Source: Escherichia phage vB_EcoM_ESCO50
Direction: 5' to 3' (one strand)
Sequence record: OM386664.1
DNA: 64,000 nucleotides
Shown: in pieces, positions 20,222 to 54,856 of the stretch
How positions within the stretch are numbered: the stretch's first letter is position 1
Layout: each line of letters opens with the position of its first letter
Notes under the pieces: model-generated
The model's input: the letters and a program-made list of their open reading frames with translations, nothing else
What the model was told of the DNA's origin: nothing
Databases searched by the model: none
Position numbers and translations under genes: made by a program

Positions 20222-20347
20222 TTATAAGAGGGTTTTTAAGTGATGTAATGTAAGGCAAGGCAAGGCAAGGTGGGGTGTGGTCTGGCCAGGTTAGGTTCGG
20301 TGATGTCAGGTATGGGTAGTTAGTCTCAGCTACATTAAAATGAGACT
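20222..20347 (+). repeat. Composite intergenic element, copy A: aagagggttttt motif + GGT-rich tract + hairpin agtctca/tgagact
   Basis: Read directly; see findings. Confidence 0.6.
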
Positions 20348-20356
20348 TACCTTTTT

Positions 20357-20494
20357 AAAAGGTCTTTAAGAGGGTTTTTTAATGAGGTAGGGTAAAGTAA
20401 TGCTTGGTCTGGTTTGGTAAGGCGCGGTCTGGTTTGGTAAGGTAAGGTTCGGTATGGTGTGGGTGGATGGTAGTAGCCACATTAAAAATCTACC
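20357..20494 (+). repeat. Composite intergenic element, copy B: aaaaggtctttaagagggtttttt + GGT-rich tract (internal 17-nt direct repeat ggtctggtttggtaagg x2) + hairpin ggtag/ctacc
   Basis: Read directly. Confidence 0.6.
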
Positions 20495-21631: not shown

Positions 21632-21759
21632 TTTTAAAAGGTCTTTAAACAGGGTCTTTTAGTAAGGCATGGCTAGGTGAGGTCTGGTAGGGTAGGGTGA
21701 GGTGGGGTTGGGTTGGGTTTGGTATGGAAGGATGGCAGTAGCCTTATAAAAAATCTGCC
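21632..21759 (+). repeat. Composite intergenic element, copy C: aaaaggtctttaaacagggtctttt + GGT-rich tract + hairpin ggcag/ctgcc
   Basis: Read directly. Confidence 0.6.
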
Positions 21760-51929: not shown

Positions 51930-52012
51930 TGGCATGGGACGGAGGAGTTGAACCCCTTTGAAACGGTGTTGGAAGCCGTTGCTCATGCCTTAGAGTCTTA
52001 ACATCGTCCCAT
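51930..52012 (-). tRNA. tRNA-like gene, tentative Trp (anticodon CCA); D-region unusually long
   Basis: Perfect 7-bp acceptor and good T-arm; hairpin with loop uu-CCA-ac; but ~26 nt between anticodon arm and acceptor. Confidence 0.4.
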
Positions 52013-52155: not shown

Positions 52156-52237
52156 TGGTCGAGGCGGCAGGACTCGAACCCGCATACTCCACTTACTCGG
52201 TTAACGTCTGTTTAGAAGACAGATGAGATACGCCCCG
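52156..52237 (-). tRNA. tRNA-like gene, tentative Arg (anticodon UCU); non-canonical arm spacing
   Basis: Acceptor (one G-U) and T-arm are clear; perfect hairpin tctgt-cttctaa-acaga; spacing leaves no room for a normal D-arm. Confidence 0.35.
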
Positions 52238-52485
52238 TAATTATCTTTAAAGACTCTCTTAGAAAGCCCTTAAAGATGCCCACCTTATTAATCATACCGT
52301 GGGCTAGTACGCCAAATTCTTTGATGAGGGATTGGAAGACCTCACTGGTGTTTAGCCTATCAAGCTACTGCCAGAAAAACATTGTCGTTTGCATTTATTT
52401 TAAATTTGCAAAATAGACGCTACGCAACGAAAACTAAGGGTACTATAAAGTGGTCACATCATTATTCTGCTACACTTCCATTAAA

Positions 52486-52625
52486 TTATCTTTGTAGATA
52501 AGCTACCCAGACTTGCTTAAGGTCTGTAGCGATGTGACTTTTTGGGTTTAAATCTAGAATTTACCCTTTCACCCTTTGTGGTCGCATACTCACAGGTAAG
52601 CTTAATAACTTATCTACAAAGATAA
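52486..52625. ncRNA. Candidate structured ncRNA: perfect 17-bp terminal inverted repeat enclosing ~106 nt with internal hairpins
   Basis: 52486-52502 ttatctttgtagataag is the exact reverse complement of 52609-52625; interior has hairpin cagac/gtctg and others; no T-loop. Confidence 0.3.
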
Positions 52626-52673
52626 TTACCAGACCGTTGTTTATCATCTTAACTAGATATCTCATAAAGTGTT

Positions 52674-52761
52674 TGGTGTGCCGTGTAGGAGTCGAACCTA
52701 CCGAGTCTCAATGACAAGGGATTTACAGTCCCCACCGCTACCATCTACGGGATAACGACAC
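52674..52761 (-). tRNA. tRNA-Tyr (anticodon GUA), long variable arm
   Basis: Manual fold: perfect T-arm gtagg-ttcgact-cctac, anticodon loop cu-GUA-aa, 16-nt variable region, acceptor with one G-U, U8. Confidence 0.6.
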
Positions 52762-52830
52762 ATTTAATTTCTATTCAGGCTAAGGACTTGCACCTTACAA
52801 ATCGGTGAGCAATCGCTTCTCTCCTGAATT

Positions 52831-52907
52831 TGGCGGTTAGTCAGGGATTCGAACCCTGTGCCATTCGCTTAACAGGCGACCGCACATACCTTATGTGCTT
52901 CCTAACC
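52831..52907 (-). tRNA. tRNA-Asn (anticodon GUU)
   Basis: Manual fold: perfect T-arm caggg-ttcgaat-ccctg, loop cu-GUU-aa. Confidence 0.6.
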
Positions 52908-52992
52908 ATGTTTAGTATTACCAGACCGTATCTTTCAATTTTTTCTGCTAAAAATTTAATAAATATTGCTGTAAACGGTCTTCTGTAAAATT

Positions 52993-53069
52993 TGGAGGCG
53001 GGTGCAGGAGTCGAACCTGCCGATACCATGCTAATGAGACATGTGAGACGCCCTTTCTCTATACCCGCA
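52993..53069 (-). tRNA. tRNA with anticodon CAU (Met, or Ile if C34 is modified)
   Basis: Manual fold: perfect T-arm gcagg-ttcgact-cctgc, loop cu-CAU-ua; acceptor register ambiguous at the 1-72 pair. Confidence 0.5.
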
Positions 53070-53199
53070 ATTCTTAATGACCAGACCAAATCTCTTCTTT
53101 GTCCGATTTACCTTCAGGTGAATAAGATTAAGTTTGCTGTAATTGGTCTTCTGTCAAAACTGGCGTTCCAGAAGGGATTTGTCTACTGGAACATTAATT

Positions 53200-53276: not shown

Positions 53277-53400
53277 ATAAACTTTTTAAACTCTATGTAA
53301 CCACTTTAACACTATTTTTTAGTGATTGTCAAGAACTTTTTTAAAATATTTTCAGTATCTTAGAAAAGCTCTCGTTTCGTTTCTATGTAGAACATATTAA

Positions 53401-53432
53401 AGGGTATTAAACACATTGTCAATACCCTTTTT
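53401..53432 (-). terminator. Hairpin (agggtatt...aataccct) with T-tract just downstream of the vWA gene stop
   Basis: 8-bp inverted repeat read directly. Confidence 0.5.
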
Positions 53433-53440
53433 AAAACTTT

Positions 53441-54856
53441 TTACCAGATATAACGGTCAAGCATTACTGCTTTGAGCATTACGCTGATTGGGTCAAACTT
53501 CTCACCACCAAGTAGAGCTTTTAAAGTGGCTGGAGAGAAACCAGATACCATTGCTACACCGTTATCCTTAACAGATACTTCGCAAGTACCATTACGGTTT
53601 GCTAAGTACCAGAATACCAGTTGTGGCATCCCATATCCAGCTTTTTTGTACTTACTCTGAATTGCTTCAAAGTTTGTACGACCGTTAGCTCCATCAACCT
53701 GATTGAACTCCATATCTGAGAAGATGATAAGCTTACTTGGCATATCTTTCTGAGTCAAGTTATTTCTTTTACCTGTCTCAAGAATGCGGTCAAAAGCTGC
53801 TTGTAAGTTAGTGGAGCCATATTCAACGTGTCGCATCACCTGACGATGACGGTTTCGTAAATCACCACTCAGTTCGATGAAGTGAGGGTTTGTTGAATAA
53901 ACCATTAACTCATTCTTAAAGCAACCTGTATTGCGTTCTGCTACATACAATGCAAGTGATACACCAATATCAAGAGCAGTAATTGAACCAAAATTCACCC
54001 AAGACATTGAGCATGAAACATCAGACATACATAGGATGTTTTCACCTTCTGCCATCCAGTTTGGTAGTGCTTTCCACTGCTCATTAGCAACATCTGCATT
54101 ACCATACTTAACAGATTTAATCACATCGTATGGGTAAACAGCACCAGCATTAATCTTAGCCTTACCATTTGATAAGGACTCGATGTAAGCTTTGTAGCGT
54201 TCTCCATCTTTACGGTTAAACAGCTTTTGGTAACGTGCAGCAGCAAGTGAAGGAACCTTACTGTAGTCAATCTTACCAAACTCATTAGCAGAGATTTTTT
54301 GCTCAACTGTATCAGATAGTGCAGACAACAGTGTGCGGTACTCTTTCTCACTCAAGTTGGCAAACTTGCAGAAACGTTTTACAAACTGCTTATGACGTGG
54401 TTTGACTCGTGGTAACCACTTGGCTGCCAAACCTGCTGTTGCAGGGTCTAGTAATGCTGCTTCTAAATGCTTGAAGGCATCTGTCTCAAAACGAGTACCT
54501 ACGAAGATTTTGAAGTCATCAAAACGACCAAGTTCTGCAACCTTATCCATAATGCGAAGAACCTGTGTAGGCTCTAAAACTTTATCTTCAATCGCTTGAA
54601 GCAAAACAGTTCTGAAGGCTTTACGCTCACCCATACCTTCTCGTACATCTCGCATATGAAGCAAAATACGAACTGCAACATCAACATCCTCACGCAAAGC
54701 TTTGTAGAACAGGTCTGGTAAGATTTCTACATTGCTACGGCTTGAACCAGCAGCTTTGTAAAAGTCTACAAGAGCAGACATTGATGAAGTATGGTTTACA
54801 GCACCATTTTCAGTTCTACCTGCATGAAGGTGCGCATGTTTAAATAACTCGCTCAT
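53441..54856 (-). CDS. von Willebrand factor A (vWA/MIDAS) domain protein with ~260-aa helical N-terminal module; possible Ro60/TROVE-like protein
   Basis: MIDAS signature DVSCSMS (DxSxS) after a hydrophobic beta strand (ENILCMSDVSCSMS), later SKLIIFSDMEF; 471 aa. vWA assignment moderately confident; Ro60-like idea is inference. Confidence 0.6.
   Translation of the reverse strand: MSELFKHAHLHAGRTENGAVNHTSSMSALVDFYKAAGSSRSNVEILPDLFYKALREDVDVAVRILLHMRDVREGMGERKAFRTVLLQAIEDKVLEPTQVLRIMDKVAELGRFDDFKIFVGTRFETDAFKHLEAALLDPATAGLAAKWLPRVKPRHKQFVKRFCKFANLSEKEYRTLLSALSDTVEQKISANEFGKIDYSKVPSLAAARYQKLFNRKDGERYKAYIESLSNGKAKINAGAVYPYDVIKSVKYGNADVANEQWKALPNWMAEGENILCMSDVSCSMSWVNFGSITALDIGVSLALYVAERNTGCFKNELMVYSTNPHFIELSGDLRNRHRQVMRHVEYGSTNLQAAFDRILETGKRNNLTQKDMPSKLIIFSDMEFNQVDGANGRTNFEAIQSKYKKAGYGMPQLVFWYLANRNGTCEVSVKDNGVAMVSGFSPATLKALLGGEKFDPISVMLKAVMLDRYIW

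What the first reader, a model, noticed from the sequence alone, without database searches (positions are those of the whole stretch)
52626..53087. Recurrent ACCAGACC motif upstream of RNA genes, matching GGTCTGGT units of the GGT-rich elements
ttaccagacc occurs at 52626-52635 and 52918-52927, and tgaccagacc at 53078-53087. Each lies within ~25 nt upstream (in minus-strand transcription sense) of an RNA unit: the inverted-repeat element, tRNA-Asn and the CAU tRNA. Its reverse complement GGTCTGGTA is the core unit of the plus-strand GGT-rich elements (ggtctggtttggtaagg at 20406, ggtctggtagggtag at 21681). So the same motif tracks transcription direction at both loci, suggesting a shared processing or regulatory signal.
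Basis: seen in the sequence. Interest (0 to 1): 0.5.

Follow-up and report, generated by a model that had tools for sequence, protein, structure and literature searches.

The report
Phage Y-RNA-like genes between tRNAs
The repeated ACCAGACC word is one half of a conserved RNA hairpin: it marks small Y-RNA-like genes wedged between the tRNA genes of a Felix O1-type phage, just downstream of a Ro60-like RNA-binding protein gene, and is not a signal shared with the GGT-rich elements.

Summary
The three copies are real and at the stated coordinates. The window is a Felix O1-like phage (Felixounavirus).

On the transcribed minus strand, GGUCUGGU is the 3' strand of a two-part helix. Its 5' partner is NNNC-AGA-AGACCNN, followed directly by the box UUACAGCAA. 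This helix closes two 71-79 nt RNAs (unit A 53156-53078, unit B 52988-52918). They fill the long spacers before tRNA-Met and tRNA-Asn.

The third copy is the orphan 3' arm of a YrlA-like RNA with a tRNA-like domain. That RNA is intact in Felix O1 and mostly deleted here.

The stems covary between units and between phage genera. The units lie 0.3-0.9 kb downstream of, and on the same strand as, ORF 53441-54856, whose model matches Ro60 over its full length.

A stem followed by an ACAGCAA box recurs next to homologues of this gene in phages of Klebsiella, Mycobacterium, Listeria, Staphylococcus, Enterococcus, Campylobacter and Sinorhizobium. Erwinia phage Tian has 29 tRNAs but no such gene and no units.

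The link to the GGT-rich elements is not supported.

Verdict: Y-RNA-like partners of a DUF2828-type Ro60-like protein, a new variant of a known kind. No binding or expression data exist.

The parts
53441..54856 (-). Ro60-like protein gene (471 aa; Pfam DUF2828 + DUF7788). It sits directly upstream of the tRNA / Y-like RNA cluster on the same strand.
   Evidence: ORF listed. Pfam: PF11443 3.8e-30 and PF25043 9.7e-43. AlphaFold2 model built with a 58-sequence alignment: pLDDT 90, pTM 0.89. The top 12 Foldseek PDB hits are all Ro60, Rsr or phage phiLo Ro60, aligned over full length (E 8e-9 to 3e-7, TM 0.45-0.66). Mycobacteriophage homologues (31-34% identity) are annotated 'Ro-like RNA binding protein'.
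53303..53422 (-). Two sigma-70-like promoters (53422-53394 and 53332-53303) ahead of tRNA-Pro. They are the likely start points of the tRNA / Y-like RNA transcript.
   Evidence: TTGACA-17-TAATAT and TTGACA-18-TAAAGT, each matching 10 of 12 positions. These are consensus matches only; their function is inferred.
53078..53156 (-). Unit A, a short Y-like RNA (79 nt). Layout: outer stem UGAC/GUCA (53156-53153 with 53081-53078); internal loop AGA (53152-50) opposite G (53082); inner stem AGACCAA/UUGGUCU (53149-43 with 53089-83); box UUACAGCAA (53142-34); 44-nt A/U-rich loop.
   Evidence: The minimum-free-energy fold recovers both helices. Scanner hit with 7/7 and 4/4 pairs. Covariance model R1: 49.9 bits, E 1.6e-13. 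The unit starts 4 nt after the tRNA-Glu remnant and ends 8 nt before tRNA-Met.
52918..52988 (-). Unit B, a short Y-like RNA (71 nt). Layout: outer stem UUAC/GUAA; internal loop AGA opposite G (52922); inner stem AGACCGU/ACGGUCU (52981-75 with 52929-23); box UUACAGCAA (52974-66); 36-nt loop.
   Evidence: R1: 50.2 bits, E 1.3e-13. The orthologous unit has UUGC/GCAA in SUSP1, L011, L036 and others, a compensated A-U to G-C change. The unit starts 4 nt after the CCA of tRNA-Met and ends 10 nt before tRNA-Asn.
52626..52652 (-). Remnant of unit D, the YrlA-like RNA. Only the last 27 nt survive (UUAAGAUGAUAAACA + ACGGUCU-G-GUAA). This is an orphan 3' arm with no 5' partner in this phage.
   Evidence: The alignment with Felix O1, Sf14 and SUSP1 shows that the window lacks tRNA-Asp, unit C and the first ~110 nt of unit D. 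Only two AGAAGACC 5' arms remain on this strand of the tRNA region, and R1 gives only two hits in the window. Intact unit D in Felix O1 (L003 4687-4551) folds into stem, V hairpin, T arm, closed acceptor-like stem and D arm.
52484..52627 (-). The inverted-repeat element: a conserved structured RNA of ~145 nt. It has a ~19-23 bp closing stem and an internal mini-hairpin, CUACAGAC-CUUAAGCAA-GUCUG(G)GUAG (52529-52503), that resembles a shrunken unit.
   Evidence: Fold z-score -4.1. RNAalifold on four genera: 12 of 32 pairs keep pairing through changes on both sides, and the mini-hairpin also covaries (CAGAC/GUCUG, CAAAC/GUUUG, CAGUC/GACUG). Its function is unknown.
52993..53069 (-). tRNA-Met (CAU), flanked by units A and B.
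   Evidence: ARAGORN.
52831..52907 (-). tRNA-Asn (GUU), downstream of unit B.
   Evidence: ARAGORN; Rfam tRNA model, 48 bits.
53161..53192 (-). Internally deleted tRNA-Glu remnant (acceptor and T-stem ends only), directly upstream of unit A.
   Evidence: Comparison of the window with the intact Felix O1 tRNA-Glu at L003 5400-5477.

Best explanation
GGUCUGGU is the 3' strand of the basal helix of small non-coding RNAs. These RNAs are phage counterparts of bacterial Y RNAs: the short units resemble YrlB, and the long unit D, which carries a tRNA-like domain, resembles YrlA.

Proposed mechanism:
1. The units are transcribed together with the tRNAs from the promoters just downstream of the Ro60-like gene (inferred).
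2. They are probably released by the tRNA-processing enzymes (inferred from position). Each unit starts 4 nt after an upstream tRNA 3' end and stops 8-10 nt before the next tRNA 5' end, which is the RNase P site.
3. Each RNA folds into a 3-4 bp outer stem, a 3x1 internal loop (ANA opposite G or A), a 6-7 bp inner stem, an invariant single-stranded (U/A)N-ACAGCAA box and a variable loop (shown by covariation).
4. The stem-plus-box module is the likely docking site for the adjacent DUF2828-type Ro60-like ring protein (inferred from gene neighbourhood, from co-absence and from analogy with Ro60/Y RNA).
5. By analogy, the resulting particle would act in RNA surveillance or repair, or in counter-defence (speculative).

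In this phage, two short units are intact and the YrlA-like unit has been lost by deletion.
For: Structure:
- The fold recovers the bipartite helix.
- 5' and 3' arms alternate strictly in every relative.
- On 50 distinct units, 9 of 11 pairs change on both sides and 98.9% of cells pair. Sliding the partner by 1-3 columns drops pairing to 20-44%.
- Single-sided changes are G.U-compatible on this strand only.
- Stem sequences differ by lineage but stay complementary: AGACCAA, AGACCGU, AGACUAU, AGUGUCU, GGACUGU, AGAAGCU.

Specificity:
- The covariance model gives exactly 2 hits in the 64 kb window on both strands.

Protein:
- The model of the upstream ORF matches Ro60 over its full length.

Association with the gene:
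- Across 14 lineage-representative loci, 31 of 59 sense-strand ACAGCAA boxes have an in-register 7-bp partner, against 8.6% of random anchors (P = 5e-18). There are 59 sense boxes against 11 antisense.
- In the Listeria and Mycobacterium phage loci, the units sit beside the gene with no annotated tRNA directly flanking them. The Staphylococcus locus looks the same, but its listed tRNA (~6.1 kb) was not checked against the unit positions (~4.5-4.7 kb) in detail.
- Erwinia phage Tian has 29 tRNAs, no homologue (tblastn best E = 1.6) and no units (best 14.8 bits, against 45-52 bits for the real short units of Felix-type genera).

Link to YrlA:
- Long units fold into V hairpin, T arm, closed acceptor stem and D arm.
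- Rfam YrlA (RF02553) matches them over the full model in Klebsiella, Mycobacterium and Enterococcus phages (E 1e-7 to 1e-3, 34-48 bits) and over part of the model (positions 23-85) in the Sinorhizobium phage (35.2 bits).

Literature:
- Y RNAs lie within 4 kb of Ro60 on the same strand, and this includes 22 phages (PMC4201824).
- Phage phiLo Ro60 binds two neighbouring Y-like RNAs (PMC12135203).
- Bas63 gp130 is described as Ro60-like, lies just upstream of that phage's tRNA genes, and counters the Ppl defence (PMC11482910). Its orthology to the window ORF rests on position and fold only; I did not check it by sequence.
Against: - There is no expression, end-mapping or binding evidence for these RNAs.
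- The canonical Ro60-binding motifs (GGUCCGA; GNCGAAN0-1G) are absent. Only the Felix-type CAGAAG resembles them, and it is not conserved in relatives.
- Nothing reaches an Rfam gathering score. No Y RNA or YrlA hit was found in the window or in Felix O1 unit D, even at E <= 10.
- The unit set used for covariation counting was chosen by complementarity, so the percentage paired is partly circular.
- The short units (71-79 nt) are shorter than the 80-130 nt quoted for Y RNAs.
- Natural loss of units C and D in this phage shows that they are dispensable under at least some conditions.
Confidence: 0.72

Rival explanations
1. The hairpins act in cis on the polycistronic tRNA precursor. They would be folding insulators or cleavage guides that help RNase P, RNase E or RNase III separate neighbouring tRNAs, and they have no role as free RNAs.
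For: In Felix-type phages, each unit exactly fills a tRNA-to-tRNA spacer: 4 nt from the upstream CCA and 8-10 nt from the next tRNA 5' end. The helix brings the two tRNA ends together.
Against: - 13 of the 15 tRNAs here have 2-8 nt spacers and no hairpin.
- Tian processes 29 tRNAs with no units.
- In the Listeria and Mycobacterium phage loci the same module sits next to the Ro-like gene without directly flanking annotated tRNAs.
- An invariant single-stranded ACAGCAA box and a tRNA-like domain are not needed for an insulator.
Confidence: 0.1
2. The units are stable small RNAs, but they work independently of the Ro60-like protein. They might be decoys or sponges for host tRNA-targeting nucleases or other RNA-binding proteins, and the gene adjacency would reflect only co-expression.
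For: The long units mimic tRNA. Phage tRNA clusters are thought to counter tRNA-directed defences (general knowledge). Dictyostelium Class I RNAs, which carry the same box, are reported to bind an RRM protein directly (PMC7919456).
Against: The units co-occur with DUF2828 genes across very different phage groups and gene neighbourhoods, on the same strand, and both are absent from Tian. Ro60-family proteins are known to pair with adjacent Y RNAs (PMC4201824, PMC12135203).
Confidence: 0.1
3. The units are decaying relics, either dead tRNA genes or the ends of a mobile insertion, with no present function.
For: The tRNA cluster is visibly eroding in this phage. tRNA-Glu is internally deleted; tRNA-Asp, unit C and most of unit D are lost; tRNA-Lys is truncated. 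HNH endonuclease genes interrupt the cluster in relatives.
Against: Compensatory changes preserve pairing in 9 of 11 pairs. The box is invariant across the sampled phages of Gram-negative, Gram-positive and mycobacterial hosts. Relics would not keep structure across that distance.
Confidence: 0.04
4. One reading: GGTCTGGT is a stand-alone processing or regulatory signal upstream of RNA genes, shared with the plus-strand GGT-rich elements at 20.2-21.7 kb.
For: The word is enriched and runs in the sense orientation at both loci. All three GGT-rich elements of this genome contain GGTCTGG, beyond what composition predicts.
Against: - The word pairs and covaries with an upstream partner, so it belongs to the preceding RNA.
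- In relatives the 3' strand changes (AGUCUGG, ACAGUCC, AGCUUCU) while the structure is kept.
- The GGT-rich elements lack a box or 5' arm, and their orthologues in tootiki and AYO145A mostly lack the word.
- No promoter-like site overlaps the word.
Confidence: 0.03

Closest known systems
Bacterial and phage Y RNAs: YrlA/YrlB of Salmonella, Yrn1 of Deinococcus, Yrl1/Yrl2 of Thermus phage phiLo (PMC4201824, PMC12135203)
   Same: - Small RNAs encoded within 1 kb of a Ro60-fold protein gene, on the same strand.
- 5' and 3' ends pair into a basal stem interrupted by an internal loop.
- Several paralogous copies per genome.
- One copy (in Felix O1 and other relatives) carries a permuted tRNA-like domain in the order V, T arm, closed acceptor stem, D arm, exactly as in YrlA.
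- In the Listeria phage locus, an RtcB-type ligase gene lies nearby, as in the Salmonella rsr-yrlBA-rtcBA operon (for the phage; the Salmonella operon is from my own knowledge).
   Different: - The protein belongs to the DUF2828/DUF7788 branch and is not annotated TROVE. It has no sequence-level PDB match.
- The conserved RNA signature is ACAGCAA placed just 3' of the 5' stem strand, not GGUCCGA or CGAA.
- The Rfam YrlA model covers only the tRNA-like core of the long units and never reaches its gathering score.
- The units are interleaved with bona fide tRNA genes.
Dictyostelium Class I RNAs (Rfam RF01414; PMC7919456)
   Same: - Length 42-65 nt, with a short stem joining the 5' and 3' ends.
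- A conserved single-stranded motif, CCUUACAGCAA, lies directly after the 5' stem strand. Nine of its 11 nt are identical to the phage box.
- The loop is variable and A/U-rich.
- A conserved 5' G pairs with the C of a 3' CUG(U); the phage units have an invariant G9-C35 pair followed by U-G.
- It is the only Rfam family that the short units hit: eight full-length sub-threshold matches in four phage lineages (15-25 bits).
   Different: - All scores are below the gathering score of 41.5.
- Class I RNAs are eukaryotic genes with their own DUSE promoter and are reported to be unique to dictyostelids.
- The known direct binder is an RRM protein, Rnp1A.
- No link to a Ro60-like protein is known.
- The resemblance may be convergent or coincidental.
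tRNA-linked small RNAs released by tRNA processing enzymes, such as phage T4 'species 1/2' stable RNAs in its tRNA cluster (from my own knowledge, not tested here)
   Same: Non-tRNA stable RNAs embedded in a phage tRNA operon, with ends that the flanking tRNA processing sites could define.
   Different: No sequence or structural relation was tested. The T4 RNAs have no known Ro60-like partner.

Membership tests
Y RNA (partner RNA of a Ro60-family protein) | Encoded near (within 4 kb) a Ro60 orthologue and on the same strand | tested here: met
   The units lie 285-815 nt (unit starts) downstream of ORF 53441-54856 on the same strand. The protein has the Ro60 fold by Foldseek. It belongs to the DUF2828 branch and is not annotated TROVE.
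Y RNA (partner RNA of a Ro60-family protein) | The 5' and 3' ends pair into a basal stem with a bulge or internal loop | tested here: met
   a 4 bp + 7 bp helix with a 3x1 internal loop; 9 of 11 pairs covary.
Y RNA (partner RNA of a Ro60-family protein) | Ro60-binding sequence in the 5' strand (GGUCCGA in animals; GNCGAAN0-1G in bacteria) | tested here: not met
   Felix-type units have (G/U)NC-A-GAAG, which is one nucleotide off. Relatives have CAUAAG, CACAGG or CAAAAG. The invariant element is ACAGCAA instead.
Y RNA (partner RNA of a Ro60-family protein) | At least one copy per genome carries a tRNA-like domain (YrlA type) | tested here: inconclusive
   Met in Felix O1, Sf14, L037, L039 and L043. 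In the window itself that copy is deleted, leaving only 27 nt.
Y RNA (partner RNA of a Ro60-family protein) | Physical binding to the Ro60 protein; stable accumulation as a small RNA | not testable with these tools
   This needs EMSA or RIP and Northern blots or RNA-seq.
Rfam YrlA (RF02553) | Covariance-model score at or above the gathering score (69 bits) | tested here: not met
   No hit in the window or in Felix O1 unit D at E <= 10. Long units of other phages score 28-48 bits, with E down to 1.2e-7. Most cover the full model; the Sinorhizobium hit is partial.
Dictyostelium Class I RNA (RF01414) | Gathering score of 41.5 bits; terminal stem plus the 11-nt motif CCUUACAGCAA | tested here: not met
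   Scores are 15.3-25.2 bits. The architecture and 9 of the 11 motif nucleotides are shared. This is a resemblance only.
Sigma-70 promoter or tRNA 5'-leader signal | -35/-10 hexamers with 16-18 nt spacing at the word; or presence upstream of tRNAs in general | tested here: not met
   No promoter-like site overlaps any copy. 13 of the 15 tRNAs lack the word.
GGT-rich intergenic elements (20.2-21.7 kb) | The same functional motif is shared with the tRNA-region copies | tested here: not met
   No 5' arm, box or covariance-model hit is found there. The word is not conserved in the orthologous elements.

The most novel reading that the evidence does not exclude
A stem followed by an ACAGCAA box may be the universal recognition module of a distinct DUF2828 branch of the Ro60 superfamily.

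The module is found next to DUF2828 genes in phages of Proteobacteria, Firmicutes, Actinobacteria and Campylobacter. In some phages it sits in the anticodon position of tRNA-shaped RNAs that are currently annotated as overlong tRNAs.

Dictyostelid Class I RNAs share the same stem, the same UUACAGCAA box and a similar 5'-G / 3'-CUG end signature. They are abundant RNAs of unknown mechanism, reported as unique to social amoebae. They could be eukaryotic members or descendants of this RNA class. Pfam describes DUF2828 as also occurring in eukaryotes (from memory), so they might work with a DUF2828 protein there.
Probability: 0.15. Interest if true: 0.85.

Novelty: new variant of a known kind. Interest (0 to 1): 0.62.

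Why it matters
Felix O1-type phages are classic typing and therapy phages. The long 'spacers' in their tRNA clusters have been treated as empty sequence.

- **Candidate RNA partners.** If the spacers encode Y-like RNAs, the conserved DUF2828 protein gains concrete candidate partners. In Bas63, the protein at the same position (gp130) is reported to be Ro60-like and to counter the Ppl defence. A 2024 preprint could only guess that such partners were hidden among the tRNA genes.
- **A searchable signature.** The pattern of a stem followed by NN-ACAGCAA flags the same RNAs next to this gene in many unrelated phage groups. It also explains some oddly long 'tRNA' annotations.
- **Testable predictions.** The work predicts RNA ends, the effect of box mutations and the effect of compensatory stem mutations. 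These bear on how a divergent branch of the Ro60 family recognises RNA.
- **A lead on amoebal RNAs.** The unexpected match to Dictyostelium Class I RNAs offers a lead on RNAs whose mechanism has been open for about two decades.

Tried and rejected
**Explanations tested and rejected**
- Promoter reading (TGn extended -10 at GGTCTGGTAAT): the hexamers are poor, there is no -35 at a valid spacing, and the scan finds no site at the word.
- Terminator reading: no U tract follows the 3' arm.
- Rfam at gathering thresholds finds only tRNAs.

**Methods that failed or fell short**
- Single-sequence AlphaFold2 gave an unusable model (pLDDT 43). It was redone with an alignment.
- A profile search of PDB sequences gave no Ro60 hit; only the fold comparison did.
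- The afdb50 Foldseek library, wanted to look for a Dictyostelium DUF2828 protein, was unavailable.
- Covariance model R1 was built from spliced units with the loop interior removed. It handles loops of ~30-50 nt but scores the long-loop D units poorly, so I judged those by folding and by the Rfam YrlA model.
- The first G+T-richness scan used thresholds that were too strict and was repeated.
- The search for related loci with the single protein returned only close relatives. More distant contexts came from the look-up of encoding contigs and tblastn hits.

**Literature checks**
- Two Ro60/Y RNA reviews (PMC10870794, PMC6047535) are not held.
- The supplements of Chen 2014, including its phage list, are not held.
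- Searches for DUF2828, ACAGCAA + Ro60, and Ro-like + phage + Y RNA found no prior description of these units. The library is incomplete, so this does not prove there is none.

**Not checked**
- Orthology of Bas63 gp130 with this ORF rests on position and fold only; I did not compare the sequences.
Full report
**Identity of the window.** The region is 99% identical to Escherichia phages ESCO56 and ESCO45 and 96-98% identical to Felix O1 and many other Felixounavirus genomes. ARAGORN finds 15 tRNA genes on the minus strand between 49.3 and 53.3 kb. A permissive Rfam scan adds a tRNA-Arg(UCU) at 52159-52237. The cluster follows a 471-aa ORF (53441-54856, minus strand) and two strong sigma-70-like promoters.

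**The observation.**
- ACCAGACC occurs 9 times in the window, against 1.38 expected.
- On the transcribed strand, GGTCTGGT lies 10 nt before tRNA-Met and 12 nt before tRNA-Asn. The third copy abuts a 19-bp inverted repeat.
- The same copies persist in Felix O1, adrianh, Sf14 (Mooglevirus) and SUSP1 (Suspvirus), while the spacer sequence next to them diverges.

**What the word is.** Each copy has an upstream partner.
- In the two intact cases, a second repeated word, ACAGAAGACC(NN)UUACAGCAA, sits just after the preceding tRNA. Folding each spacer pairs the two words:
  - unit A: UGAC-AGA-AGACCAA ... UUGGUCU-G-GUCA;
  - unit B: UUAC-AGA-AGACCGU ... ACGGUCU-G-GUAA.
- The sequence differences between A and B are compensated in both helices.
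- In Felix O1, adrianh, Sf14 and SUSP1, 5' arms and 3' arms alternate strictly along the cluster and define four units, A to D.
- Orthologous units, placed by their flanking tRNAs, show further compensation:
  - unit B is UUGC/GCAA in SUSP1, L011, L036 and others;
  - unit C is GAGC/GCUC, GAGC/GUUC, GGGC/GCUC or GGGC/GUCC.
- Relatives whose upstream protein is only 46-63% identical keep the layout with different stem sequences: AGUAUCU, AGACUAU, AGUGUCU, GGACUGU, GGAUUCU, GGACUCU, AGAAGCU.
- On 50 distinct units, 9 of 11 pairs change on both sides and 98.9% of cells pair. Sliding the partner by 1-3 columns gives 20-44%.
- I chose the units by complementarity, so the percentage paired is partly circular. 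The orthologue comparisons and the cross-lineage test described below are not.
- One-sided changes are G.U-compatible on the minus strand only. This points to an RNA-level structure.
- A covariance model of the unit finds exactly two hits in the whole window, units A and B (50 bits, E ~1e-13).

**The third copy.** Alignment with Felix O1, Sf14 and SUSP1 shows that this phage has lost tRNA-Asp, unit C and about 110 nt of unit D.
- Only the last 27 nt of unit D remain (52652-52626). The word is therefore an orphan 3' arm.
- Intact unit D in Felix O1 and Sf14, and the long units of L037 and L039, fold into the basal helix followed by four elements:
  - a small hairpin;
  - a T arm (GGUUCGAUUCC or GGUUCAAAUCC);
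  - a closed 5-7 bp acceptor-like stem;
  - a D arm (a textbook UAGCUCAGUUUGGUAGAGC in L039).
- This is the permuted tRNA-like layout described for YrlA (PMC4201824).
- Rfam's YrlA model matches the corresponding long units of Klebsiella, Mycobacterium and Enterococcus phages over its full length. E-values run from 1e-7 to 1e-3, which is below the gathering score. The Sinorhizobium phage match covers only part of the model.

**The neighbouring protein.**
- Pfam assigns DUF2828 and DUF7788.
- A single-sequence model failed. With a 58-sequence alignment, the AlphaFold2 model reaches pLDDT 90.
- Its 12 best PDB matches are all Ro60 proteins: Xenopus or human Ro60, Deinococcus Rsr and Thermus phage phiLo Ro60. 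All align over the full length.
- Mycobacteriophage homologues are already annotated 'Ro-like RNA binding protein'.
- A 2024 preprint reports that Bas63 gp130 is Ro60-like, lies just upstream of that phage's tRNA genes, and counters the Ppl defence. It speculated that some of the annotated tRNAs might be Y RNAs (PMC11482910).
- My analysis places the candidates in the spacers, not in the tRNA genes.
- I infer that Bas63 gp130 is the counterpart of the window ORF from position and fold only; I did not compare the sequences.

**Generality.** The stem-plus-box module recurs next to homologues of this gene in very different phages:
- three units each in Mycobacterium phage Kingsolomon, Listeria phage LMTA-34, Staphylococcus phage S-CoN_Ph16 and Enterococcus phage PEf771;
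- two units in Campylobacter phage F371;
- one or two units in Sinorhizobium phage phiM12;
- several units in Klebsiella phage FBKp34.

Across 14 lineage-representative loci, 31 of 59 sense-strand ACAGCAA boxes have an in-register 7-bp partner, against 8.6% of random anchors (P = 5e-18). Boxes are 59 sense against 11 antisense.

In the Listeria and Mycobacterium phage loci the units have no annotated tRNA directly beside them. In Cronobacter phage S13 and Klebsiella FBKp34, overlong annotated 'tRNAs' (113-121 nt) carry a closed hairpin plus the box in the anticodon position. This is a circular permutation of the YrlA-like layout.

Erwinia phage Tian belongs to the same subfamily and has 29 tRNAs at the syntenic site. 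It has no homologue of the gene (tblastn best E = 1.6), no covariance-model hit above 14.8 bits, and no box in its tRNA cluster. The units therefore follow the Ro60-like gene, not tRNA clusters as such.

**Mechanism.**
- Shown:
  - the structure and its conservation;
  - the strand;
  - the tight tRNA flanks;
  - the association with a Ro60-fold gene;
  - the YrlA-like domain in the long units.
- Inferred:
  - co-transcription with the tRNAs;
  - release by tRNA-processing enzymes;
  - binding of the stem-box module by the Ro60-like protein.
- Speculative: a role in RNA surveillance or repair, or in counter-defence.
- Against full membership:
  - the canonical Ro60-binding motifs are missing, and ACAGCAA takes their place;
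  - no Rfam threshold is reached;
  - no experiment exists.

I therefore file the units as a new variant of the Y-RNA kind, not as YrlA or YrlB members.

**The GGT-rich elements.** Three plus-strand elements (about 20240-20321, 20384-20477 and 21655-21747) each contain GGTCTGG.
- That is more than their composition predicts within this genome.
- They have no 5' arm, no box and no model hit.
- The two copies in the second element are one tandem duplication.
- The orthologous first and third elements of tootiki and AYO145A lack the word while remaining GGT-rich.
- The shared word is best explained by paralogy among fast-evolving G/T-rich repeats. It is not evidence of a common function with the tRNA-region copies.

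**An unexpected resemblance.** The only Rfam family that the short units hit is the Dictyostelium Class I RNA (RF01414). There are eight full-length sub-threshold matches at 15-25 bits, in the window, Felix O1, Klebsiella FBKp34 and Listeria LMTA-34. Class I RNAs are described as follows (PMC7919456):
- 42-65 nt long, with a short terminal stem;
- an 11-nt motif directly after the 5' strand, which reads CCUUACAGCAA in the Rfam consensus;
- a variable loop;
- a conserved 5' G paired to the C of a 3' CUGU.

The phage units share UUACAGCAA, its position, and an invariant G-C pair followed by U-G. This may be coincidence or convergence, and I could not test whether dictyostelids encode a DUF2828 protein. 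I record it as the most novel reading that my evidence does not exclude.

Noticed in passing
window 52484-52627 (-): The 'inverted-repeat element' is itself a conserved structured RNA of ~145 nt. Across four genera, 12 of 32 predicted pairs keep pairing through changes on both sides. It contains a mini-hairpin (52529-52503, CUACAGAC-CUUAAGCAA-GUCUGGGUAG) that looks like a shrunken unit. Its function is unknown.
   Followed up: partly
window 20240-20321, 20384-20477, 21655-21747 (+): There are three GGT-rich intergenic elements (43% G, 8% C). Each is preceded by a terminator-like hairpin and a motif like AAAAGGTCTTTAAGAGGGTTTTTT, and each is followed by a conserved hairpin (for example GGCAGTAGCCTTATAAAAAATCTGCC). 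At least the third is then followed by a sigma-70-like promoter. Their sequence is hypervariable between related phages, but the GGT periodicity is kept. Their function is unknown.
   Followed up: partly
window 52159-52237 (-): A tRNA-Arg(UCU) is missed by ARAGORN and by the default Rfam filters. The permissive scan finds it at 33.4 bits, above the gathering score of 29. It matches the tRNA-Arg(TCT) annotated in Sf14.
   Followed up: partly
window 53161-53192 (-), 52455-52479 (-), 52638-52673 (-): The tRNA cluster is eroding in this lineage. tRNA-Glu has an internal deletion that leaves only its end stems. tRNA-Lys(UUU) is truncated after about 25 nt. A ~20-nt filler replaces tRNA-Asp, unit C and most of unit D. 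ESCO56 and ESCO45 align with this region as one uninterrupted piece, so they probably share these deletions.
   Followed up: partly
window 51930-52012 (-): An unannotated tRNA-like sequence (AUGGGACG...GGGGUUCAACUCCUCCGUCCCAUGCCA) has an 8-bp acceptor-type stem and a T-arm-like hairpin. No tRNA finder calls it. It gives only a weak Tymo_tRNA-like match nearby. A similar sequence occurs in L037 at ~11254.
   Followed up: no
L044 5896-6016 and 6026-6138; L043 6003-6116: Overlong annotated 'tRNAs' (113-121 nt) sit near or downstream of the Ro-like gene in Cronobacter phage S13 and Klebsiella phage FBKp34. They have normal tRNA ends, but in the anticodon position they carry a closed hairpin followed by AUUCAGCA or UUACAGCA. 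This is the same module in a different permutation, so these are probably misannotated Y-like RNAs.
   Followed up: partly
L046 2428-2979 (+) and 6808-8019: In Listeria phage LMTA-34, a ROOL RNA match (88.5 bits, just under the gathering score of 99.1) lies about 1 kb upstream of the Ro-like gene. An RtcB-type 'tRNA splicing ligase' gene lies about 1.3 kb downstream. The arrangement resembles the Salmonella rsr-yrl-rtcBA operon.
   Followed up: no
window units A and B; L003 4695-4774; L043 5532-5594 and 5621-5671; L046 3623-3678: The short units repeatedly give full-length, sub-threshold matches to Dictyostelium Class I RNA (RF01414). They share the UUACAGCAA motif right after the 5' stem strand.
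   Followed up: partly
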